Below, in pieces: positions 2,654 through 59,147 of a DNA stretch of 64,000 bases. Origin of the DNA: a virus (Duplodnaviria; Heunggongvirae; Uroviricota; Caudoviricetes); the IMG/VR virus record IMGVR_UViG_2700989044_000001, positions 11,683 through 75,682 of that record. One strand, given 5' to 3'. How positions within the stretch are numbered: the first letter of the stretch is position 1; every line of letters starts with the position of its first letter. The notes under the pieces were generated by a model. The model was not told where the DNA came from and did not search any database. It saw nothing but the letters and a program-made list of their open reading frames with translations. The position numbers were made by a program, and so were the translations under genes.

Positions 2654-4003
2654 ATGGTTAAGCAATACATTTTATCAATAGATAGTGAAATGAAAGAATA
2701 TTTTGGTGAAAAAATTTCACTCCTTGAAAATCAAATGAAGGATGTTTTCTCTCAAGCAAATCTAGCTATTAATAATTCAAGTTATTTATATTTAATAGAA
2801 AACTTCATAAAAGACATTCTAGATACAAGTATTTCACTAATTGATTATTATGTTGATGGTATTTACAATAGTGGAAAAACAGTCAGTAGGAAAAAATTGA
2901 AATTGCAAAAACAAATCCCAGATGATGGAGAAAGATACGCGTTTACTGATAAAGATAAGTTATTTATTGAAAAATACAAATCAGAAAAATTAGTATCGTT
3001 ACAATTAGAATTACAAAAAGCAATATTTGCATATATCGAAAACAAATTATCTAATGAAATTGATAACAATGATTCAAAAGTTATTGATTTAATTAAAGAA
3101 GACCTAGATAGCTCTTATGAAGAAATTATAGATATTTTAGTTAGAGAAATACTAATGTTATTTAAAAGATCCCAAATAGAAGAGTATAAAAATTTAAATA
3201 TCAAAGAAATATCTATAATCACTGAAGATGAATCACTATGTTGTCCAGTTTGTATAGCTAAGTCTAATAAAATTTTAAAAATAGATGAAGTAATTAACGA
3301 TTTTGGTTTAAAGGATGGTAATCACCATTCATTCTGTAATTATTCGTTAGATCCAATAATTAGTCTTGGTAAAAATGAAGAACTAAATAATGAAGTTAAT
3401 ACAAATATTGATTTTAATATTTTATCTTTATCTTTTAAAAATGTACCAATTGAACTTGAATATAGAATTAATAAGTTAGTAAGTAAATTTAAGATATATG
3501 GTAAGAAGTATTTAAGAGAAATTGAATTTAATTTTGTTAAAAACATCACAGAAGAAAACGATTGGTTTAATTCTGTTAAGTCTCATTATTCAAACTCTGA
3601 AAACAAATCTGCTATTGATAATGTTTTACAGGCTCAGGATGATTTAAAAGATAAAACTATGTCTTTTGATTTTAATGACAAATGTTATATATCTATCAAT
3701 TCGCTCGATTATCAATCTGTAGAAGAAATTATTACTAGAAAACTTATGAATGATTCATTAGTTATTGATAATTGGGTAACTGATAGATATCAAACTAAGA
3801 TAGATAGTAAGTATGTTGGAAATGGTATTGTGATATATCAAGATCCGTTTGTAAATCAACTGGCTCAAGATTCACCTTTTGATTATTTATTAGAATCAAT
3901 TATTGTTTATGTAAATAAACCTAAGCAATTAGAAGTATTAGACAAGGAAATTTTTGATTACATTAAAGAAAAAATCTTCAATGGAATTCAATTTTTTAAG
4001 TAA
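2654..4003 (+). CDS. hypothetical protein (possible head morphogenesis protein, follows portal)
   Basis: ATG at 2654 after GGGGGTGAG RBS (ORF-track start 2627 is an upstream extension); Cys cluster CCPVC; position after portal. Confidence 0.45.
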   Translation: MVKQYILSIDSEMKEYFGEKISLLENQMKDVFSQANLAINNSSYLYLIENFIKDILDTSISLIDYYVDGIYNSGKTVSRKKLKLQKQIPDDGERYAFTDKDKLFIEKYKSEKLVSLQLELQKAIFAYIENKLSNEIDNNDSKVIDLIKEDLDSSYEEIIDILVREILMLFKRSQIEEYKNLNIKEISIITEDESLCCPVCIAKSNKILKIDEVINDFGLKDGNHHSFCNYSLDPIISLGKNEELNNEVNTNIDFNILSLSFKNVPIELEYRINKLVSKFKIYGKKYLREIEFNFVKNITEENDWFNSVKSHYSNSENKSAIDNVLQAQDDLKDKTMSFDFNDKCYISINSLDYQSVEEIITRKLMNDSLVIDNWVTDRYQTKIDSKYVGNGIVIYQDPFVNQLAQDSPFDYLLESIIVYVNKPKQLEVLDKEIFDYIKEKIFNGIQFFK

Positions 4004-23498: not shown

Positions 23499-24632
23499 AT
23501 GAAACGTTTAGTAAAAGCTGAACAACAGAGTAGTACTATCAAATTAATGCATGGTACATCTAGTAAATTAGCTGAATCTATTTTTGAAAACGGTCTTTTA
23601 CCGCAAGGATTGACTGATACAAAAATGTTTAATTATAGTGATTATGGTAGAGAAGGCGACGCAAGACATATTGAATGCGTATATTTAACTGATGATTTAG
23701 AAAATGCTGTTAGATACGCTAACAATGCTGTTAAACATAAGGGAGGATTTCCTTTAATTTTCGAAGTGGAAGTTGAGAAATCTGCTTTAACATGGGATGA
23801 CGATGCTTTTTATAAAAACTATGGCGATTTTGATTTTGGAGAAAAAGATGAAGAGTCTGGTACTTGGATCAAAAAACCATCTAAGCAATTGTGGGAACAA
23901 TCATTAACTATCAATAATCAATGTGCTCATTATGGCAAAATTGAAAGAGACAGTTTTAAAAGAATTAACTTAAATTCAAAATGGATCAATATTTATAATT
24001 TTATTAGAATTTACAATAGCTACGATAAGATGAATTTAAAACCAGAGTTGTTAAAAGAAAAAGAAGAATATTACTACAAAGAATTTAGTTTAGAAATAGA
24101 CGATAATTTAAAATTAATGGCTTCGATTATTGACAGAAATATATTTTTGTACAATTTAGAAATCGTAAAATCGCTTGATAAATTCGAAAAACAAGCTTTT
24201 TCATTGATCTTAATGGAATTTTTAAAGGACAATTTGAAAGAATTTGGAGCTAAAATTTTCTATACTTCAGATTTTAAATCATTAAATTTCAATCCAAAAA
24301 TTTCTAGTTTAAACTACGCTTTTGGTAGATTTGAAATAAATAGTTTAGAAAGCATACTTGATCACGTACAATTACGAATTCAACGTATGGATGAAGACTC
24401 TATAATGATGTCGAAGATAGTTAATTGCGAAGCTTCTGAAGAAGAATTTGACTTAATTTATGAGTATAGCATTGATTTCTCTGGAGATTTAATCGAATTC
24501 TGCGAAAAATCTTTACAAATGGATAATGATTCTATTCTTGATGTTTTAAAAAGAGTTAAACATCAGTATAACGATGCGTATAACGAGTTAGATGCTGAAA
24601 TCGAATACTTATTGTATAGAGATCATAAATGA
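23499..24632 (+). CDS. ADP-ribosyltransferase-fold protein (PARP/Tpt1-like NAD-binding lobe) with MKRLVK leader and ~270-aa C-terminal extension
   Basis: LMHGTSSKLAESIFENGLLPQGL...CVYLTDDLENAVRYA...FEVEVE resembles the HGT-GLLP-VHLSxDxExA pattern of KptA/Tpt1 and the H-Y-E lobes of PARPs; RBS AATAGGAGGA. Confidence 0.5.
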   Translation: MKRLVKAEQQSSTIKLMHGTSSKLAESIFENGLLPQGLTDTKMFNYSDYGREGDARHIECVYLTDDLENAVRYANNAVKHKGGFPLIFEVEVEKSALTWDDDAFYKNYGDFDFGEKDEESGTWIKKPSKQLWEQSLTINNQCAHYGKIERDSFKRINLNSKWINIYNFIRIYNSYDKMNLKPELLKEKEEYYYKEFSLEIDDNLKLMASIIDRNIFLYNLEIVKSLDKFEKQAFSLILMEFLKDNLKEFGAKIFYTSDFKSLNFNPKISSLNYAFGRFEINSLESILDHVQLRIQRMDEDSIMMSKIVNCEASEEEFDLIYEYSIDFSGDLIEFCEKSLQMDNDSILDVLKRVKHQYNDAYNELDAEIEYLLYRDHK

Positions 24633-27969: not shown

Positions 27970-28782
27970 ATGACTAAAGAATTAACACATAAAGATATTT
28001 GCCCTTACTTCGAAGATAACTGCTCAAGCGTAGGGTGTGTTTGTCCTAAATACTTAGCTTACCAAGATGTAAATAATCCTGAAATTGTAGCCCGTGAAAT
28101 TAAAAAAATGGGTATTGACCCTAATAGTGATAAATTAACTCTAATGATGGAAATGCAAAAATCTTTTGCAGCAAAATTCCACAAGATTGATGGTTTTGAA
28201 AAAACGGAAGTGGATTATTGGATTAAAGCATATGACACTTGTGTTACTGATGAAATTGCAGAGGTACATGAATTTTTAGAGGTTCTTCCTGACATGCAAG
28301 CGAAAGATAATCTATTGGAATTACAAAAAGAATTCATTGATATTTGGCACTTCCTAATGGATATGTTTATTGTTGCTAATATGAATGCAGATGACTTAAT
28401 CAAAGTTTATAGCAAGAATCATAAAGATGTTGAAGGTTACTCAAAACCATTAGAAGCAATGTTTGAAAATGAAAAACAATATTTAATTTCAAAAATCAAC
28501 AACTTCGATTCTTTAAGTAAAGAAGAAAACGATTTAGAAATCTTAAAGTATTCTTCAATGGTTATGCAAGGTACTCGAAAAGTACGACAACAAATTTCTT
28601 GGAAGCATTGGAAAAAACCTTCCAATGAAATTAACTATGAGTTTCTTCACGCAGCTCTTGTAGATACTTTCCGTTCATTAGTTCAATGTTTTGTATTAGC
28701 TGGTTTAGATGCAGAAAAATTAACAAACATCTATAAAAACAAAAATATCGAAAACGTTTTACGTCAATTACATGGTTATTAA
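27970..28782 (+). CDS. all-alpha NTP pyrophosphohydrolase (dimeric dUTPase/MazG-like)
   Basis: EIAEVHEFLEV...ELQKEFIDIWHFLMDMF carries the E..E..E...E..D metal-binding spacing of MazG/dimeric dUTPases. Confidence 0.4.
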   Translation: MTKELTHKDICPYFEDNCSSVGCVCPKYLAYQDVNNPEIVAREIKKMGIDPNSDKLTLMMEMQKSFAAKFHKIDGFEKTEVDYWIKAYDTCVTDEIAEVHEFLEVLPDMQAKDNLLELQKEFIDIWHFLMDMFIVANMNADDLIKVYSKNHKDVEGYSKPLEAMFENEKQYLISKINNFDSLSKEENDLEILKYSSMVMQGTRKVRQQISWKHWKKPSNEINYEFLHAALVDTFRSLVQCFVLAGLDAEKLTNIYKNKNIENVLRQLHGY

Positions 28783-28795
28783 TTGATTATTATTT

Positions 28796-28830
28796 AAGAA
28801 GCTATCTTATTAGATAGCTTCTTTTTTATT
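28796..28830 (+). terminator. rho-independent terminator
   Basis: AAGAAGCTATC-TTAT-TAGATAGCTTCTT followed by T6. Confidence 0.8.
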
Positions 28831-28930
28831 AAACGAATATATAGTTTTAGAGATGTCTAGATTTTGTAAAAACTATTCAATATATTTATTATAATTTATG
28901 TATCTTAATTGAAAAAGGGGAAATAATAGA

Positions 28931-29203
28931 ATGACTTTCGATAAAATCTTACCGTTATTAAAAGAAGGAAAAAAAGCTTTTAGATTAGGTTGGAATGGTA
29001 AAGAGATGTTTGTTGTGTTTCAAAAAGGTTATCCAGATGGGATTCCTTGTAATAAACAAACAGCAGAAGCTTGGGGGTTACAAGAGGGAGACTTATTTAA
29101 AGTAGAACCTTATTTGCAAATTCGCACTGCTCGTGGCACACATGCTATGTGGGTTCCATCTATCGGAGATATACTTGCTGATGATTGGGAAATAATCAAA
29201 TAG
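28931..29203 (+). CDS. DUF2829 family protein (Tad2-like candidate anti-Thoeris sponge)
   Basis: N-terminal MTFDKILPLLKEGKKAFRLGWNGKEMFV and C-terminal DILADDWEII match the DUF2829 pattern. Confidence 0.55.
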   Translation: MTFDKILPLLKEGKKAFRLGWNGKEMFVVFQKGYPDGIPCNKQTAEAWGLQEGDLFKVEPYLQIRTARGTHAMWVPSIGDILADDWEIIK

Positions 29204-29211
29204 TTTTAATT

Positions 29212-29246
29212 AAGAGCTGAAAGTAAATATTCAGCTCTTTTTAATA
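29212..29246 (+). terminator. rho-independent terminator
   Basis: AGAGCTGAA...TTCAGCTCT hairpin followed by T5. Confidence 0.7.
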
Positions 29247-29267: not shown

Positions 29268-29981
29268 ATGGAGCTTATTCGTTTATTATTGTTTACGATT
29301 TTCTTTTATATTCCAATTATTCTTTTCGTTGGTCATAGATTTAAAAATATGCTTGCTTTCTTTGCTGTTTTTCTAATTCCAACTGCCCTCGCCATGTTTA
29401 TTGATAATGAACTCATAGGATTTACTGACATATTTTTATTAATAGTATGTTCATTAATAATCCAAAGCGTATTGAAAAAATCTTTACCTTATGATTTATC
29501 AGAAAACAAGACAAATCATTCTCTTAATAAGATAATAGAAATTATTCCAACATTTGTGTTTTTAAAGTTTGTTACTACTGCTTTAGCAGCAATAGTCGTT
29601 TCTAGTATTGAATTCCTTTTAAAGACGGAGAACGTAAGACAAGAAATTGTAACAAAAATGGATAGTAGTGATAGCATATCTGTAACTATTATGTTACTTA
29701 TTTCAGTTTGTATTTTTGCTCCTATAGCAGAAGAGTATGCTTTTAGATATTTTTTATATGATTATTGTTTGAAAAACATAGTAAAGCTTAATGTGTATGC
29801 ATCGGCTATCATATCTTCTTTAATCTTTGCAGTATTACATGATGGCTTATCTGGTATGGTAAATGCATTTATTTCAGGTTTGGTTTTAGCTTGGGTATAT
29901 CAAAAGCACGGATTGTTATATTCTATAATAGCCCATTTTACATTTAATTTGATATCCAGCATTTTTATAATTTTCCTTTAA
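29268..29981 (+). CDS. CPBP family intramembrane metalloprotease (CAAX protease/Abi-like)
   Basis: Multi-TM protein with APIAEEYAFRYFLY (EExxxR) and FAVLHDG (FxxxH) motifs. Confidence 0.7.
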   Translation: MELIRLLLFTIFFYIPIILFVGHRFKNMLAFFAVFLIPTALAMFIDNELIGFTDIFLLIVCSLIIQSVLKKSLPYDLSENKTNHSLNKIIEIIPTFVFLKFVTTALAAIVVSSIEFLLKTENVRQEIVTKMDSSDSISVTIMLLISVCIFAPIAEEYAFRYFLYDYCLKNIVKLNVYASAIISSLIFAVLHDGLSGMVNAFISGLVLAWVYQKHGLLYSIIAHFTFNLISSIFIIFL

Positions 29982-31538: not shown

Positions 31539-32495
31539 ATGAAAATCAAAAAGAAAGCGTCATTAATTATCATGACAGCATTATTAGCTTCAACATTGGC
31601 AGGTTGTCGTCAACCATACGATAAACCAGAATTTGTTGAAATTGGCCCTAATGAAACTGCCTTCGTACTTCAAATGGAAGGTGACACAAAAGATCAAGGA
31701 AAGTTTGAAAGTGAAGAATTCCTAATGGAAAACTTAGTTGCTGCAAAACGTATTGAAATTCCTCATAAATGGATAAAAACAGGCCGTGGATGGTGGAAAG
31801 GTAAATATGTAGATAAAATTCGTGTAATCAAAGTTGACCGTACAACTGTTACACGCGAATGGACTACTGAAGGCGAGAAGAAACAAGGAATTAAAGTTGA
31901 ATCAAAAGATTCTATTAAGTTCTCTGTTGGTACAAGCGCAACAGCTCAAATTGTAGATCATGAATCCGCTGCAAAGTTCTTATTCTGGTACAGTGGCCGT
32001 ACTTTAGCTGATGTAATGGATACAGAAATTCGTAACCGTTTTGAAACAGCTTATATTGAAGAAATTTCTAAACTCACAATGGAAGAAATCCGTGGCGATA
32101 AATCAAATTCTATGAATGTTGTTCGTAAACAAGTTGAAAGTTATTTCGCTGAACGTGGCATTACTTTATCTAACATTGGTTATAAAGGTGAGTTAGTTTA
32201 TGATGATCCTGAAGTTCAAAAAGCTTTATCTGCTCAATTCGTAGCTGAACAAAATAAAAAGGCGCAAGACACTATTAACTCAACAAATGAAGAGAAAGCT
32301 AACTCTGAAGCTAGAGCAGCAGCTACTCGTCAAAAATCTTTAGAAGCTCAAACACGTATTATGGAACTTGAAAACCAAAAAGCTTTAATTGAAAAACTTG
32401 ATAAAGTTGATCTTCCAAAAGTATGGATGAGCGGTAGTAATAGTACAATCTTAGATTTACCCGCTGATTTACTAGAAGGTACATCTAAAAAATAG
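31539..32495 (+). CDS. lipoprotein (possible SPFH/band-7-like)
   Basis: Signal peptide with lipobox LAGC; C-terminal coiled coil; RBS GGGGGAATTG. Confidence 0.45.
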   Translation: MKIKKKASLIIMTALLASTLAGCRQPYDKPEFVEIGPNETAFVLQMEGDTKDQGKFESEEFLMENLVAAKRIEIPHKWIKTGRGWWKGKYVDKIRVIKVDRTTVTREWTTEGEKKQGIKVESKDSIKFSVGTSATAQIVDHESAAKFLFWYSGRTLADVMDTEIRNRFETAYIEEISKLTMEEIRGDKSNSMNVVRKQVESYFAERGITLSNIGYKGELVYDDPEVQKALSAQFVAEQNKKAQDTINSTNEEKANSEARAAATRQKSLEAQTRIMELENQKALIEKLDKVDLPKVWMSGSNSTILDLPADLLEGTSKK

Positions 32496-32502
32496 CAAAA
32501 GG

Positions 32503-32533
32503 AAAGAGATGATTTTAAATCATCTCTTTTTTA
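32503..32533. terminator. bidirectional rho-independent terminator
   Basis: AAAGAGATGATTTTAAATCATCTCTTT flanked by A-run and T-run; sits between convergent genes. Confidence 0.75.
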
Positions 32534-33064
32534 ATTGTATTTAACTACTTCTTTTTTAAAAGGATTGAATCTTAAAATCCTTTTCTTTCGTGATTCTGCA
32601 TACTTAAAACAATTCCTTGTTCCTCCATTAGAACCATCCCAAACTGCTATGATTAAATCTGAATGATTCACCATCCACTCATTTCTAACTTGTAAAATGT
32701 AGTTCCCAACAGCATCAAAAGATCCTTTGTGTACATATATAGTTTCATCCGCTAAAGAAACTAATTTATAAAATTGTTGCTTGACTTCGTCAGGCCATCG
32801 TTCACCAAAGCCTTTGTAAGGTATAGCCATTGTCAGTTTTATATTTTTGTTAGTGTGTAACTTCTTCTTTTCTAGTATTATTTCAGCAGCCCACAAATCA
32901 ACTCCTTGCGCCCCTCCTGAAATAAACCTTACGTAGTCAAAACGTTGTATCATTTTTTCTATTGTTTGGTCTAACCAATTGTAAACTAATTGAAACTCTT
33001 CTTCGTTTTCTCCATAATTGCCTATTTTGTCGGGTCTATGCCCTGTAAAAGAAATAGAAACCAC
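32531..33064 (-). CDS. YpsA/SLOG family protein (DUF1273)
   Basis: ISFTGHRP...FISGGAQGVDLWAAE matches the B. subtilis YpsA TGYKP...GQLGVELWAAE core. Confidence 0.6.
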   Translation of the reverse strand: MVSISFTGHRPDKIGNYGENEEEFQLVYNWLDQTIEKMIQRFDYVRFISGGAQGVDLWAAEIILEKKKLHTNKNIKLTMAIPYKGFGERWPDEVKQQFYKLVSLADETIYVHKGSFDAVGNYILQVRNEWMVNHSDLIIAVWDGSNGGTRNCFKYAESRKKRILRFNPFKKEVVKYN

Positions 33065-52560: not shown

Positions 52561-53169
52561 GTGGATTGGGGAGAAACAAAACTTAAAAGCATAAAAGAAG
52601 AGATATTGTATGTGTTTCCGTTTGGTTCAAAAGTTTATGGAAATGTTACAAAAAATTCTGATACAGATTTGATTGTAGTTGTTAAGGGCAACGAAGAATT
52701 GAAATATCAAATATGCGATGATGACGGTGATATTCACGTGTATAGTAGAAAAACGTTTGAGGGATTAATAGATAGACATGATATCTCTGCATTAGAGTGT
52801 ATTTTTTCTAACGATACAGATTTTGATTTTGTGTTAGATTTTGAGAAATTAAGAAGATCGATTTCTGCAGTTGCGTCTAATAGTTTTGTAAAGTGTAAGA
52901 AAAAATTAACTTCAGGCTCAGATTATAACCCGTACATAGCAAAGAAAAGTATGTTTCATTCAATAAGAATACTTGAATTTGGAATTCAAATTGCTAAGTA
53001 TGGTAAAATTACAGATTTTGGTTGCGCCAATCACTATTATGAAATGCTGTTGGAGATGGATGATTGGGGAACTATTAAAAATTATTTTCAACCAATTGCA
53101 AATAAATTGAAATCTGAGTTTAAAAAATTAGCACCTTTAGATAAAGATATATATAACAAAAAATGGTAG
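52561..53169 (+). CDS. nucleotidyltransferase (Pol beta superfamily) domain protein
   Basis: FPFGSKVYGNVTKNSDTDLIVV matches the hG[GS]x9-13Dh[DE]h NTase motif; downstream acidic DDDGD. Confidence 0.5.
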   Translation: MDWGETKLKSIKEEILYVFPFGSKVYGNVTKNSDTDLIVVVKGNEELKYQICDDDGDIHVYSRKTFEGLIDRHDISALECIFSNDTDFDFVLDFEKLRRSISAVASNSFVKCKKKLTSGSDYNPYIAKKSMFHSIRILEFGIQIAKYGKITDFGCANHYYEMLLEMDDWGTIKNYFQPIANKLKSEFKKLAPLDKDIYNKKW

Positions 53170-54471: not shown

Positions 54472-55302
54472 ATGTCTAGAGATCAATTAGCTAAAATAGC
54501 AAAAGAAACAATTGAAATCGTAAAAAAAGGCAGTTATGTAAATAAAAAGAAAAAGACAATATCAGTCAAAGATGATGTGGATTTTTCTGTAAAAAATACT
54601 AAGTTGTATTCACCAGAAGATGGAGATGAGTTACTTAAAAATTTAACTCAAAATGATATTTTACATCAAACAAAATTTGAATGTAAAAATGAAACAACTT
54701 TATTTGCTGCAAAGAGACTATTAGATGAAGGTTTTAATAATGTAGTTGCTTTAAACTTTGCTTCAGCAAGAAATCCAGGTGGAGGTTTCTTAAAAGGGTC
54801 TTCAGCACAGGAAGAAAGTTTAGCAAGGTCTTCTGCATTGTATGATAGTATTTCTCAAATGAGAGAAATGTATGATTACAATTCTAAAAATAAGAGTGGA
54901 TTATACTCTGACTATATGATTTACTCGCCTTCAGTACCTGTATTTAGAGATAACACAGGGGAGTTACTAGAAAAAAGTTTTAATTGCTCCTTTGTTACTT
55001 CTCCGGCTGTTAATTTAAAAGTTTTACAACAGGAAGAAAAACAAAAGGCTAGAGTTGTCATGGAGCAACGAATCAGAAAGATACTTACTGTGGCACTAGA
55101 AAATAATTGTGATGCTATTGTGCTTGGAGCGTTTGGTTGTGGTGTATTTGGAAATAGACCAGTAGATGTAGCTCAGATTTTTAGACAAGTTTTGAATAGT
55201 ACACAGTTTAAGGGCAAATTTAAAAAAGTATCATTTGCAGTTTACGACAAGACTCCTAATAAACAAATTTTTAATGTTTTTAAAAATACCTTTGGGAGAT
55301 AA
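54472..55302 (+). CDS. microbial-type poly(ADP-ribose) glycohydrolase (DUF2263/PARG)
   Basis: LNFASARNPGGGFLKGSSAQEES contains the PARG signature GGG-X7-QEE; ATG after AAGAAAGAGGTATTAAA. Confidence 0.6.
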   Translation: MSRDQLAKIAKETIEIVKKGSYVNKKKKTISVKDDVDFSVKNTKLYSPEDGDELLKNLTQNDILHQTKFECKNETTLFAAKRLLDEGFNNVVALNFASARNPGGGFLKGSSAQEESLARSSALYDSISQMREMYDYNSKNKSGLYSDYMIYSPSVPVFRDNTGELLEKSFNCSFVTSPAVNLKVLQQEEKQKARVVMEQRIRKILTVALENNCDAIVLGAFGCGVFGNRPVDVAQIFRQVLNSTQFKGKFKKVSFAVYDKTPNKQIFNVFKNTFGR

Positions 55303-55593: not shown

Positions 55594-55998
55594 ATGTATA
55601 AGGCTACTGGTAAAATAGTATTTAATCCCGTAACAAGAGAAGGAGATATGCCAGATAAGTTATGGTGGGTGATGGTAGAATGCCCTCATGATATTATCGA
55701 ATATTATAGGTATTGGGTAACTAAAAACAAAAACTTTAAAATAAGTTACCCACTATTTGGATCACATATATCTATCATTAGGAACGAAGAGCCACCTGAT
55801 GAATTTAAACACTTGTGGGGTAAGAGAAATGGTATGGAAGTTGAGTTTACCTATACTCCAGACTTTGAAACAAACGGAAACTACTGGTGGTTAAAAGTGG
55901 ATTGTCCACAATTAGATGATATTAGAGAAGAGTTGGGTTTACCTAGAAAGCCTTTTTTTGATTATCATTTAAGTATAGGTAAACTCATAAGGGTATAA
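55594..55998 (+). CDS. hypothetical protein
   Basis: ATG after AAAGGGGATTTGGGG. Confidence 0.4.
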   Translation: MYKATGKIVFNPVTREGDMPDKLWWVMVECPHDIIEYYRYWVTKNKNFKISYPLFGSHISIIRNEEPPDEFKHLWGKRNGMEVEFTYTPDFETNGNYWWLKVDCPQLDDIREELGLPRKPFFDYHLSIGKLIRV

Positions 55999-58667: not shown

Positions 58668-59147
58668 ATGATAACAGCTTTTAGAAGTGATTTAACTAAA
58701 TTGCAAAACGTAGATTATATAGTGAACGCTGCGAATGCAAAAGGTCCCATGGATTCTGGAATAGCTGGGGCAATAAGAATAAATGGTGGAACTGAAATAC
58801 AAGATGCTGCAATGTTAATATGTTCTAAATTAAATTATCAACCTGGAGATATTTATGTTACACATGCTGGTAGATTATCATTTAAGAAAATAATTCACCT
58901 TGTAACAATGGAAAACCCAGGTGGAGTAACTTCATATGATATTGTTAGAAAATGCCTTCAGAATTTAATTTTATACTGTAAAGTTAATAATATTAAGAAA
59001 ATCGCTTTACCAGCTTTAGGTACAGGTGTAGGTGGTTTAGATATTGATAAAATAGCAGGAATTTTTAAAGAAATATTGGGTAGTGTAGAAGAAATAGAGT
59101 TTTTAGTTGTAGATATTGATCCAATGTTTATTTACAATTTTAAATGA
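58668..59147 (+). CDS. Macro domain protein (ADP-ribose binding/hydrolase)
   Basis: YIVNAANAKGPMDSGIAGAI matches the macro-domain VNAAN...G..GAI signature; RBS AAAGGCGG. Confidence 0.55.
   Translation: MITAFRSDLTKLQNVDYIVNAANAKGPMDSGIAGAIRINGGTEIQDAAMLICSKLNYQPGDIYVTHAGRLSFKKIIHLVTMENPGGVTSYDIVRKCLQNLILYCKVNNIKKIALPALGTGVGGLDIDKIAGIFKEILGSVEEIEFLVVDIDPMFIYNFK

What the first reader, a model, noticed from the sequence alone, without database searches (positions are those of the whole stretch)
28931..29203. DUF2829/Tad2-like small protein - candidate immune-signal sponge
The 90-aa ORF matches the DUF2829 pattern at both ends (N-terminal MTFDKILPLLKEGKKAFRLGWNGKEMFV and C-terminal DILADDWEII). 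The Thoeris anti-defence protein Tad2 belongs to this family and sequesters the gcADPR signal. Its presence together with PARG and Macro erasers suggests this region is enriched for counter-defence functions aimed at NAD-derived signalling.
Basis: partly seen in the sequence, partly recalled or inferred. Interest (0 to 1): 0.6.

Follow-up and report, generated by a model that had tools for sequence, protein, structure and literature searches.

The report
Tad2-family immune-signal sponge gene, already annotated
This 90-codon gene of the giant Bacillus phage G (gp59) is a clear member of the known Tad2 family of phage proteins that soak up bacterial alarm molecules, so it is an ordinary, already catalogued find whose exact target molecule is still untested.

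Summary
The ORF at 28931-29203 (+) is real and codes for the quoted 90-aa protein. The window is Bacillus phage G, and the gene is gp59, which RefSeq already calls "DUF2829 domain-containing protein".

**Family membership is solid:**
- Pfam PF11195 (Tad2-like) matches at E=1.7e-23 over its full length.
- The sequence hits every solved Tad2. ModTad2 scores 1e-15 and SPO1 Tad2 4e-10.
- The AlphaFold model has pLDDT 96.8, and its only significant PDB matches are Tad2 structures.
- The core ligand contacts are present: W21, N22, G23, W74, S77 and D80.

**What remains open:**
- The ligand is not settled. Tad2 proteins bind 3'cADPR, His-ADPR, N7-cADPR, cUMP/cCMP or cyclic dinucleotides.
- gp59 is about equally distant from all characterised members (30-44% identity). 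Its subfamily, marked by a conserved insertion (residues 31-61), has no member among the eight characterised sequences I could obtain.

**The context argument is weak.** The PARG (gp114) and Macro (gp122) genes exist, but they lie 25 and 29.5 kb away, beyond the replication genes and a tRNA cluster. They also erase ADP-ribosylation rather than intercept signals.

**Verdict:** family assignment confirmed, function plausible but untested, low novelty.

The parts
28931..29203 (+). gp59 coding sequence (90 aa plus stop): a single-domain Tad2-like (DUF2829/PF11195) protein
   Evidence: ORF and translation. Pfam PF11195 E=1.7e-23. PDB sequence hits to ModTad2, SPO1 Tad2, HgmTad2 and SptTad2. AF2 model pLDDT 96.8. 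Foldseek finds only Tad2 structures as significant matches.
28991..28999 (+). Codons for W21-N22-G23, the invariant WNG motif. It corresponds to SPO1 Tad2 W25/N26 and HgmTad2 W21/N22/G23, which contact the ribose and diphosphate of gcADPR.
   Evidence: MAFFT alignment with characterised Tad2 proteins. Invariant in 114 of 114 subfamily members. Contact residues taken from Yirmiya 2023 and Li 2023.
29021..29113 (+). Codons for residues 31-61 (QKGYPDGIPCNKQTAEAWGLQEGDLFKVEPY). This subfamily-specific insertion lies between the core strands and is predicted to form strand-helix-strand. It is the most conserved segment of the subfamily.
   Evidence: Column entropy is 0.46 for the insertion against 1.08 (N-terminal) and 0.88 (C-terminal) in 114 close homologues. 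The trend is the same (1.41 against 1.92 and 1.91) in 138 representatives from the exhaustive search. Secondary structure E34-39, H42-48, E55-58.
29150..29170 (+). Codons for W74-V-P-S77-I-G79-D80, the C-terminal pocket motif. It corresponds to SPO1 W73/S76/T78/D79 and HgmTad2 W87/S90/T92/D93.
   Evidence: Alignment. WVPSIGD is identical to the motif of the E. coli AIEC_UM149 homologue, which inhibited type I Thoeris. W74 and D80 are invariant, and S77 is present in 109 of 114.
28796..28823 (+). Terminator-like hairpin (12 pairs plus a T-run) closing the upstream gp58 unit
   Evidence: scan_promoters_terminators: 2 such sites in the 2.5 kb scanned, against 0.6 expected from shuffles.
28864..28892 (+). 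Sigma-A/sigma-70-like promoter candidate TTGTAA-17-TATTAT upstream of gp59. Weak evidence only.
   Evidence: 9 of 12 consensus matches. Such sites are no more frequent here than in shuffled AT-rich sequence (12 found, 14.5 expected), so this is a suggestion and not a finding.
28914..28920 (+). Shine-Dalgarno-like AAAGGGG, 10 nt upstream of the ATG
   Evidence: Read directly from the sequence.
29212..29239 (+). Terminator-like hairpin (10-bp stem, 8-nt loop) followed by a U-run, 9 nt after the gp59 stop codon
   Evidence: RNA fold dG -13.6 kcal/mol, z=-3.9, and 0 of 200 shuffles fold as well. The simple scan did not call it.

Best explanation
gp59 of Bacillus phage G is a Tad2-family 'sponge'. 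By homology it should assemble into a homotetramer (two V-shaped dimers) that forms two recessed pockets at protomer interfaces. These pockets are lined by W21/N22/G23 of the beta1-beta2 loop and by W74/S77/D80 of the C-terminal segment. The pockets bind, without degrading, an ADP-ribose-derived alarm molecule made by a host TIR-domain protein on infection. The most probable ligand is 3'cADPR (1''-3' gcADPR) of type I Thoeris. His-ADPR (type II) and N7-cADPR (type IV) are live alternatives. Sequestering the signal keeps the Thoeris effector (the ThsA NADase or equivalent) inactive, so the infected cell is not killed before the phage completes its cycle. Shown here: the gene, its family membership, the predicted fold and conservation of the contact residues. 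Inferred: tetramerisation, ligand binding, ligand identity, timing of expression and benefit to phage G.
For: Pfam PF11195 Tad2-like scores E=1.7e-23 over the full length. phmmer hits every solved Tad2: ModTad2 1.2e-15, SPO1 Tad2 3.8e-10, HgmTad2/AcrIIA7 5e-9 and SptTad2 8e-6. The AF2 model has pLDDT 96.8 and pTM 0.82, with the alpha1 / antiparallel sheet / alpha2 / alpha3 order described for Tad2. Foldseek against the PDB gives 24 significant hits, all Tad2 structures with TM 0.67-0.78, and the next hit has E of about 0.9. The residues that contact gcADPR in SPO1 Tad2 (W25, N26, W73, S76, D79, I63, T65) and the mutation-sensitive residues of HgmTad2 (W21/N22, S90, D93) are all conserved in gp59, as W21, N22, W74, S77, D80, I64 and T66. 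The WVPSIGD motif is identical to that of the E. coli UM149 homologue, which blocked type I Thoeris. In the founding study, SPO1 Tad2 and 4 of the 5 additional homologues tested inhibited type I Thoeris. Li et al. predict that only about 1% of Tad2 proteins lack a functional gcADPR site. The protein is under strong purifying selection across many unrelated Firmicutes phages and prophages, with 70-88% identity in differing genomic contexts. This pattern fits a mobile accessory counter-defence gene. The gene has its own Shine-Dalgarno sequence and is bracketed by two terminator-like hairpins.
Against: No experiment exists for gp59 or, as far as I could find, for any member of its subfamily. Conserved contact residues do not guarantee 3'cADPR binding. 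ModTad2 keeps W/N/W/S/D yet does not inhibit type I Thoeris. Three secondary positions differ from SPO1 Tad2: D67->R68, H71->A72 and T78->G79. E25 and R68 are also unusual within gp59's own subfamily. About a quarter of sponge homologues tested by Hadary et al. (19 of 84, across three families) inhibited none of seven systems. Oligomeric state could not be modelled with these tools. Whether Priestia (Bacillus) megaterium hosts carry Thoeris was not established, and a full-text search for the two terms together returned nothing relevant. The promoter candidate is no better than chance.
Confidence: 0.75

Rival explanations
1. gp59 is a Tad2-family sponge, but its canonical pocket is tuned to a signal other than 3'cADPR. 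That would make it a ModTad2-like inhibitor of type II Thoeris (His-ADPR) or a type IV (N7-cADPR) binder that does not block type I Thoeris.
For: The best sequence and structure hits in the PDB are ModTad2 (phmmer 1.2e-15 against 3.8e-10 for SPO1 Tad2; Foldseek top hit 9eib with His-ADPR; 44% against 33% identity). gp59 shares A72 with ModTad2, where SPO1 has H71. Like ModTad2, it has extra strands flanking helix alpha2. Tad2 specificity is known to vary and to be narrow.
Against: BLOSUM and NJ distances to ModTad2 (0.61) are no smaller than to the type I-active E. coli UM149 homologue (0.60), and ModTad2 lies outside the gp59 subfamily. The pocket motif WVPSIGD equals that of the type I-active protein, whereas ModTad2 has WTPSVSD. 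The residues that select His-ADPR were not available to me, so this could not be tested directly.
Confidence: 0.3
2. gp59 is a two-pocket sponge. Besides the ADPR-type pocket, the conserved insertion (residues 31-61) builds a second pocket within each dimer that captures a different nucleotide signal, such as a cyclic mononucleotide or dinucleotide or a molecule not yet known. This would let it defeat two defence systems at once.
For: The insertion is the most conserved part of the subfamily. Q31, K32, Y34 and M73 are invariant (114/114) and H71 nearly so (112/114). Four of these five (Q31, K32, Y34, M73) occupy alignment positions where HgmTad2 has the CDN-contacting R31, P32, D34 and N85. 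HgmTad2, SptTad2 and MoTad2 already show that this interface can bind CDNs or cUMP. The model shows strand-helix-strand, as in the extended ModTad2 and HgmTad2 insertions, rather than the occluded SPO1 arrangement.
Against: The HgmTad2 CDN-binding residues themselves (R31, S47, F70, N85) are not conserved: gp59 has Q31, V58 and M73, and the segment around S47 is absent. The insertion is 31 aa against 41 in HgmTad2. High conservation could simply reflect the alpha2/beta2 dimer interface described for SPO1 Tad2. No multimer or ligand modelling was possible, and the top hits were chosen by similarity to gp59, which inflates apparent conservation.
Confidence: 0.25
3. gp59 is an anti-CRISPR of the AcrIIA7 type acting on Cas9.
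For: AcrIIA7 (= HgmTad2) belongs to the same family, and gp59 hits it at E=5e-9.
Against: Li et al. could not reproduce any anti-Cas9 activity for HgmTad2 or other Tad2 homologues, in vitro or in vivo. They showed that it is a gcADPR and CDN sponge. Yirmiya et al. and the EVADES analysis reach the same view.
Confidence: 0.02
4. gp59 has the Tad2 fold but no counter-defence role in phage G. It could be an inactive or repurposed small nucleotide-binding protein, or its target system may be absent from phage G's hosts.
For: 19 of 84 tested sponge homologues inhibited none of seven systems. No Thoeris in B. megaterium was documented in the literature searched. In B. cereus-group siphophages the closest homologue sits beside head-morphogenesis genes rather than in an obvious anti-defence island.
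Against: Strong purifying selection acts on the exact ligand-contact residues across hundreds of phages. GC3 matches neighbouring phage G genes, indicating long residence and retention. No alternative function is known for any DUF2829 protein.
Confidence: 0.1

Closest known systems
SPO1 Tad2 (gp34.65; PDB 8SME/8SMF/8SMG, 8WJE), the founding Thoeris anti-defence 2 protein
   Same: Same Pfam family. It is a single-domain protein of about 90 aa from a Bacillus phage, with the same predicted fold (Foldseek E=5.6e-8, TM 0.73). The main gcADPR contacts are conserved: W25/N26/W73/S76/D79/I63/T65 correspond to W21/N22/W74/S77/D80/I64/T66.
   Different: Only 33% identical. SPO1 D67, H71 and T78 become R68, A72 and G79. 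SPO1's short insertion, with F44 stacking that occludes the second site, is replaced by a longer conserved strand-helix-strand insertion with T44 at that position.
ModTad2 / MoTad2 (Myroides odoratus prophage; PDB 8V3E, 9EIB)
   Same: Best sequence hit (1.2e-15, 44% identity) and best structural hit (TM 0.78). It shares A at the SPO1-H71 position and extra strands flanking alpha2.
   Different: ModTad2 binds His-ADPR (type II Thoeris) and cUMP/cCMP (Pycsar) and does not inhibit type I Thoeris. Its pocket motif is WTPSVSD against WVPSIGD in gp59. It lacks the GYPDGIPCNKQTAEAWG insertion and falls outside the gp59 subfamily.
HgmTad2 (= AcrIIA7; PDB 8KBI-8KBM, 8WJC) and SptTad2 (8WJD)
   Same: Same family and fold (E=5e-9; TM 0.76 and 0.74). 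The gcADPR-site residues W21/N22/G23/W87/S90/D93 are conserved in gp59.
   Different: These proteins have a 41-aa insertion forming a cyclic-dinucleotide pocket (R31, S47, F70, N85). gp59 has a 31-aa insertion with different residues at the aligned positions (Q31, V58, M73).
E. coli AIEC_UM149 prophage Tad2 homologue (159 aa; active against type I Thoeris in Yirmiya et al.)
   Same: Identical C-terminal pocket motif A-x-WVPSIGD, with G at the SPO1-T78 position and an acidic residue after WNGK (D, against E25 in gp59).
   Different: 36% identity. It carries an N-terminal extension of about 75 aa and lacks the gp59-type insertion.
Tad1 and Acb2 sponges
   Same: Same strategy: small, oligomeric phage proteins that sequester immune second messengers without degrading them.
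   Different: Unrelated folds and oligomers (hexamers). There is no sequence or structural similarity to gp59, since only Tad2 structures were recovered.

Membership tests
Tad2-like / DUF2829 (Pfam PF11195) | Profile match above the curated gathering threshold, covering the whole domain | tested here: met
   83.4 bits against a cut-off of 25, E=1.7e-23, profile positions 1-73 of 73.
Tad2-like / DUF2829 (Pfam PF11195) | Tad2 fold: N-terminal helix, antiparallel beta-sheet, short helices alpha2 and alpha3 in the loops | tested here: met
   AF2 pLDDT 96.8 with H3-11, strands, H42-48 and H78-82. The 24 significant PDB matches are all Tad2 structures, TM 0.67-0.78. This is a predicted structure, not a solved one.
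Tad2-like / DUF2829 (Pfam PF11195) | Conserved ligand-contact residues of the ADPR-type pocket (WNG loop; W-x-x-S-x-x-D segment) | tested here: met
   W21, N22, G23, W74, S77 and D80 align with SPO1 W25/N26/G27/W73/S76/D79 and HgmTad2 W21/N22/G23/W87/S90/D93. Secondary positions differ (R68, A72, G79).
Tad2-like / DUF2829 (Pfam PF11195) | Encoded by phages or prophages as a small accessory gene | tested here: met
   Phage G gp59. Homologues occur in 244 phage records and in prophage or phage contigs with varying neighbours.
Tad2-like / DUF2829 (Pfam PF11195) | Homotetramer with two interface pockets | not testable with these tools
   Only monomer prediction is available, and no coordinates are returned.
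Tad2-like / DUF2829 (Pfam PF11195) | Binds and sequesters an immune signalling molecule and thereby inhibits the cognate defence system | not testable with these tools
   Needs binding and plaque assays. No published test of gp59 was found.
Type I Thoeris-inhibiting Tad2 (3'cADPR binders such as SPO1 Tad2) | Sequence features that separate 3'cADPR binders from non-binders | tested here: inconclusive
   The core contacts are conserved, and the pocket motif is identical to a type I-active homologue. However, ModTad2 also keeps the core contacts and is inactive on type I. gp59 is equidistant from all characterised proteins.
ModTad2-type (His-ADPR / type II Thoeris) clade | Membership of the ModTad2/TmoTad2/CcaTad2 clade | tested here: inconclusive
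   ModTad2 is the best PDB hit (44% identity), but the NJ tree places it outside the gp59 subfamily and it lacks the insertion motif. The His-ADPR contact residues were not available.
HgmTad2-type dual sponge (cyclic-dinucleotide second pocket) | Long (about 41 aa) insertion carrying R31, S47, F70 and N85, which bind cGG or cGAMP | tested here: not met
   The gp59 insertion is 31 aa, and the aligned residues are Q31, V58 and M73, with the S47 region absent.
AcrIIA7 anti-CRISPR | Inhibition of type II-A Cas9 | not tested
   It is homologous to AcrIIA7/HgmTad2, but the anti-Cas9 activity of that protein was not reproducible according to Li et al..

The most novel reading that the evidence does not exclude
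gp59 represents a large Tad2 subfamily with no member among the eight characterised sequences I could compare. At least about 100 clusters at 50% identity, spanning Firmicutes, Bacteroidetes and Cyanobacteria, carry the G[YFW]PxG..N.QT insertion. Its near-invariant residues (Q31, K32, Y34, N41, Q43, T44, W48, H71, M73) would form a second intradimer pocket, at the place where HgmTad2 binds cyclic dinucleotides and MoTad2 binds cUMP. That pocket would bind a different, possibly still undiscovered, immune signalling molecule. If so, gp59-type proteins could serve as bait to identify a new signal, as Tad1 and ModTad2 did for 3'cADPR and His-ADPR.
Probability: 0.2. Interest if true: 0.55.

Novelty: already known. 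Interest (0 to 1): 0.22.

Why it matters
The finding adds little that is new. The gene is already labelled DUF2829 in RefSeq, and Pfam now names that family Tad2-like, so any routine domain scan gives the same answer. The Tad2 mechanism (sequestering TIR-made ADPR-derived signals) has been solved structurally for several homologues.

It has modest value in three respects. It documents that a 497-kb giant Bacillus phage carries a signal sponge as an apparently self-contained gene cassette. It shows that the ligand cannot be read off from family membership. It also points to a well-populated subfamily with a strikingly conserved insertion that I could not find characterised. Testing one member of that subfamily, for instance gp59 or Listeria phage A511 gp64, against the known panel of signals would be cheap. 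Such a test could widen the known ligand range of Tad2 sponges.

Tried and rejected
1. **Tight NAD-related anti-defence island around gp59.** Rejected. Pfam, PHROGs and PADLOC scans of gp54-gp67 gave a weak NucS-like hit, PgpA, a MazG/dUTPase_2-like NTP pyrophosphohydrolase, a CPBP membrane protease, an HTH protein, an SPFH lipoprotein, a YpsA-SLOG protein and DUF7678. No PARG, Macro, TIR, NADase or known sponge is adjacent.
2. **PADLOC and NCBIfam on gp59.** No hit. This is uninformative, because those libraries hold no Tad2 model.
3. **Nearest-neighbour transfer of ligand specificity.** Failed. Distances to all characterised Tad2 proteins are 0.60-0.69, and none lies in the subfamily.
4. **Sequences and activity table of the 18 Tad2 proteins tested by Hadary et al.** The supplement is not held. 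The His-ADPR and cUMP contact residues of MoTad2 are not given in the accessible text.
5. **Prior discussion of phage G gp59 as Tad2, or of Thoeris in B. megaterium.** Literature searches found nothing relevant.
6. **Promoter prediction.** The TTGTAA-17-TATTAT site is no better than chance in this AT-rich DNA, so I do not claim early expression.
7. **Recent horizontal acquisition.** No sign of it. GC is 36% against 30% for the window, but GC3 (0.24) is like that of neighbouring genes.
8. **Second copies in phage G.** tblastn found a single place in the genome at E<=1e-5.
9. **gp53 as a PARP-like ADP-ribosyltransferase.** Only a sub-threshold Pfam hit and no PDB sequence hit. Left as a passing note.
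10. **Genome scan for close relatives.** It gave 15 Firmicutes loci, none in Priestia. It uses exact peptide patterns and one genome per species, so the absence means little.
Full report
**Observation.** The ORF listing and the raw sequence show an ATG-to-TAG ORF at window 28931-29203 on the + strand. An AAAGGGG Shine-Dalgarno-like element lies 10 nt upstream of the ATG.

**Origin of the window.** Megablast of 10 kb around the ORF gives 100% identity to Bacillus phage G (JN638751.1 / NC_023719.1). This is a 497,513-bp phage of the genus Donellivirus whose host is B. megaterium. Window coordinate equals record coordinate minus 11682. The ORF is gp59 (YP_009015370.1). RefSeq already names it 'DUF2829 domain-containing protein'. 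tblastn finds only one copy in the phage G genome.

**Family membership.**
- Pfam PF11195, now called 'Tad2-like: Thoeris anti-defense 2-like domain', matches at E=1.7e-23 (83.4 bits, cut-off 25) over the entire profile.
- The best PHROG hits, phrog_1048 and phrog_872, have no assigned function.
- phmmer against all PDB chains retrieves only Tad2 proteins with significance. These are ModTad2 (8V3E/9EIB, 1.2e-15), SPO1 Tad2 gp34.65 (8SME and related entries, 3.8e-10), HgmTad2 = AcrIIA7 (8KBI and related entries, 5e-9; a longer AcrIIA7 chain 9KZR, 2e-7) and SptTad2 (8WJD, 8e-6).
- An AlphaFold2 model built on an 87-sequence alignment is very confident (pLDDT 96.8, pTM 0.82). Its element order is H3-11, E16-18, E27-31, E34-39, H42-48, E55-58, E61-65, E71-73, H78-82, E86-88. 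This matches the alpha1 / antiparallel sheet / alpha2 / alpha3 description of Tad2.
- Foldseek against the PDB returns 24 hits with E<=1e-3. Every one is a Tad2 structure (TM 0.67-0.78 normalised to the query), and the next hit has E of about 0.9.

gp59 is a Tad2-family protein.

**Ligand-site residues.** I took the contact residues from the primary papers.
- SPO1 Tad2 uses W25, N26, W73 and D79 as main contacts. T78 bonds the adenine, I63 and T65 make non-polar contacts, and D67, H71 and S76 hold waters.
- HgmTad2 uses W21, N22, G23, W87, L88, S90, T92 and D93. The W21A/N22A and S90A/T92A/D93A mutants lose binding.

I aligned gp59 with SPO1 Tad2, ModTad2, HgmTad2 and the four further homologues tested by Yirmiya et al. 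Those sequences came from their Supplementary Tables 7 and 12, and the HgmTad2 sequence from the alignment. The alignment shows that W21, N22, G23, W74, S77, D80, I64 and T66 of gp59 occupy those positions. Three secondary positions differ from SPO1: D67->R68, H71->A72 and T78->G79. The segment A72-x-W74-V-P-S-I-G-D80 is identical to that of the E. coli AIEC_UM149 homologue, which did inhibit type I Thoeris. In 114 close homologues, W21, N22, G23, W74, D80, D85 and W86 are invariant. E25 (usually G) and R68 (usually N, Q or D) are peculiarities of the phage G protein.

**Why the ligand is not settled.**
- SPO1 Tad2 binds 1''-3' and 1''-2' gcADPR but no cyclic oligonucleotides.
- ModTad2 does not inhibit type I Thoeris. 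It sequesters His-ADPR (type II) and, in a second pocket, cUMP/cCMP of Pycsar.
- HgmTad2 and SptTad2 add a cyclic-dinucleotide pocket built from a long insertion.
- Tad2_71 blocks Thoeris types I, II and IV.
- Hadary et al. stress that individual sponges are highly specific. They also report that 19 of 84 tested homologues (across three families) hit none of seven systems.
- gp59 is 44% identical to ModTad2, 39% to HgmTad2, 36% to the E. coli and Nitrosospira proteins, 35% to the R. callidus protein, 33% to SPO1 Tad2 and 30% to the M. bastinii protein.
- BLOSUM distances (0.60-0.69) and a neighbour-joining tree put every characterised protein outside its subfamily.

ModTad2 retains the same core contacts yet is inactive on type I, so conservation of those residues cannot discriminate. 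I rate 3'cADPR as the most likely ligand at roughly even odds. The reasons are the prior from the founding study (SPO1 Tad2 plus 4 of 5 further homologues active on type I), the estimate that about 1% of family members lack a functional gcADPR site, and the pocket motif shared with a type I-active protein. His-ADPR or a broader spectrum is the main alternative.

**The insertion.** gp59 belongs to a subfamily defined by the segment QKGYPDGIPCNKQTAEAWGLxEGDLFKVxPY (residues 31-61).
- Among the 114 closest homologues (>=69% identity), this is the most conserved part. Mean column entropy is 0.46, against 1.08 for the N-terminal third and 0.88 for the C-terminal third.
- The trend holds in 138 domain sequences from the exhaustive search, which has no word index: 1.41 against 1.92 and 1.91. 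Those hits were ranked by similarity to gp59, so this comparison is partly circular.
- The motif G[YFW]PxG..N.QT occurs in 122 of 168 domains examined. Two of them are untested entries of Yirmiya's Table S12 (Myroides odoratus DSM 2801, 72% identical; Synechococcus PCC 6312, 46%).
- The HgmTad2 dinucleotide-binding residues (R31, S47, F70, N85) are not conserved, so gp59 fails the membership test for that sub-type.
- However, the aligned positions Q31, K32, Y34 and M73 are invariant within the subfamily, and H71 is nearly so. The model shows strands flanking alpha2, as in the extended ModTad2 and HgmTad2 insertions.

This leaves room for a distinct second pocket. The plainer explanation is that the segment forms the alpha2/beta2 dimer interface described for SPO1 Tad2. 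I could not model multimers or inspect coordinates.

**Gene anatomy and context.**
- A 12-pair terminator-like hairpin (28796-28823) closes the upstream gp58 unit.
- A 10-bp hairpin with a U-run (29212-29239; dG -13.6, z=-3.9) follows the gp59 stop codon.
- gp59 therefore looks like a self-contained cassette. The upstream TTGTAA-17-TATTAT site is no better than chance in this 30% GC DNA, so I make no claim about timing.
- GC3 of gp59 (0.24) resembles that of its neighbours (0.17-0.24), which argues against recent acquisition.
- The neighbours are a weak NucS-like protein (gp54), PgpA (gp55), a MazG/dUTPase_2-like NTP pyrophosphohydrolase (gp58), a CPBP/Rce1-like membrane protease (gp60), a Cro/CI HTH protein (gp62), an SPFH lipoprotein (gp65), a YpsA-family SLOG protein (gp66, minus strand) and DUF7678 (gp67).

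**The PARG/Macro argument.** Both genes exist. gp114 (window 54472-55302) is a microbial-type PARG (PF10021, 3e-53). gp122 (58668-59147) is a Macro domain protein (7.4e-25; DarG-like macro 1.3e-15 in PADLOC). They lie 25.3 and 29.5 kb downstream of gp59. Between them are a sigma factor, clamp loader, helicase, ribonucleotide reductase genes and eight tRNA genes. They hydrolyse ADP-ribose attached to macromolecules rather than sequester second messengers. In a phage with 675-odd genes, co-occurrence within 64 kb is weak evidence of a functional cluster. I treat that part of the interpretation as unsupported rather than refuted.

**Distribution.** The exhaustive phmmer search of 1.84 billion cluster representatives finds 2,037 with E<=1e-3, 290 with E<=1e-10 and 40 with E<=1e-30. 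Many are longer proteins with N-terminal extensions, and 14 of the pool have two Tad2 domains. Close homologues (70-88% identity) occur widely:
- B. cereus-group siphophages, Listeria A511/P100-like myophages and Brevibacillus, Vibrio and Escherichia phages;
- Paenibacillus, Carnobacterium, Enterococcus and Bacillus genomes;
- Clostridia and Bacilli prophage loci.

Their neighbourhoods differ. One lies in a PolA-type lytic phage contig, between a gp32-like gene and a 5'-3' exonuclease gene. Others lie between the SSB/replication and terminase modules of temperate siphophages. This is the pattern of a mobile accessory gene.

**Mechanism and rivals.**
- Best explanation (0.75): gp59 is a tetrameric Tad2 sponge that sequesters a TIR-derived ADPR-type signal, most likely 3'cADPR, and so prevents activation of the Thoeris effector.
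- Within-family rivals, which overlap with the best explanation: a specificity shifted to His-ADPR or N7-cADPR (0.3), and a dual-pocket sponge with a second, unidentified ligand (0.25).
- Other rivals: no counter-defence role in phage G (0.1) and an AcrIIA7-type anti-CRISPR (0.02; that activity was not reproducible).

**Novelty and verdict.** No paper in the searchable library discusses phage G gp59. Even so, the family assignment is already in RefSeq and follows from any Pfam scan, and the family's mechanism is well established. I therefore class the finding as already known and score interest at 0.22. The one aspect that could repay work is the gp59-type subfamily, which has no tested member I could find and carries a hyper-conserved insertion.

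Noticed in passing
window 32531-33064 (- strand), gp66: RefSeq labels it 'GTP-binding domain', but it is a YpsA-family SLOG protein (PF06908, E=4e-26; PDB 2NX2 YpsA, 2.6e-6). SLOG domains are nucleotide-ligand sensors, and ThsA of type I Thoeris uses one to sense gcADPR. A phage-borne copy 3.3 kb from the Tad2 gene is curious.
   Followed up: partly
window 54472-55302 (+), gp114: This gene is unnamed in RefSeq. It is a clear microbial-type poly(ADP-ribose) glycohydrolase (PF10021, E=3e-53), with a weak Macro-like hit in its C-terminal part.
   Followed up: partly
window 58668-59147 (+), gp122: A stand-alone Macro domain protein (PF01661, 7.4e-25). It resembles the macrodomain of the DarG antitoxin (PADLOC, 1.3e-15), so it could counter DarT-type DNA ADP-ribosylation.
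   Followed up: partly
window 23499-24632 (+), gp53: A sub-threshold match to the PARP catalytic domain (21.1 bits against a cut-off of 26.7, E=2.5e-4) in the first ~100 residues of a 377-aa protein. There is no PDB sequence hit. It may be a divergent ADP-ribosyltransferase, but this is unverified.
   Followed up: partly
window 29268-29981 (+), gp60: The gene immediately downstream of gp59 encodes a multi-pass membrane protein with a CPBP/Rce1-like intramembrane protease domain (PF02517, 7.5e-18). This family is often linked to self-immunity or Abi-type functions.
   Followed up: no
window 27970-28782 (+), gp58; loci L005-L007 at about 3071-3615: gp58, directly upstream of gp59, is a MazG/dUTPase_2-like NTP pyrophosphohydrolase (PF08761, 6.6e-8; phrog_173, 2.6e-18). 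A dUTPase_2 gene also lies about 2.5 kb upstream of the close Tad2 homologue in three temperate siphophage contigs. This may be coincidence from sharing an early module.
   Followed up: no
window 31539-32495 (+), gp65: An SPFH/Band 7 domain protein with a lipoprotein-type signal sequence (…LAGC) (PF01145, 8e-8; phrog_200 'lipoprotein', 1.5e-27). The small membrane protein gp64 precedes it.
   Followed up: no
window 55594-55998 (gp116) and 52561-53169 (gp109): Both give weak hits near or below threshold. gp116 matches a 2H phosphoesterase (2H-SAK, 25 bits against a cut-off of 27). gp109 matches a Pol-beta-type nucleotidyltransferase. Both lie near the PARG gene, and members of these families can cleave or make nucleotide signals.
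   Followed up: no
proteins P0121, P0125, P0137 and others: Most 50%-identity representatives of the gp59-type Tad2 are longer than 110 aa and carry N-terminal extensions. Fourteen contain two Tad2 domains in tandem, forming natural pseudo-dimers that could reveal which interface matters.
   Followed up: no
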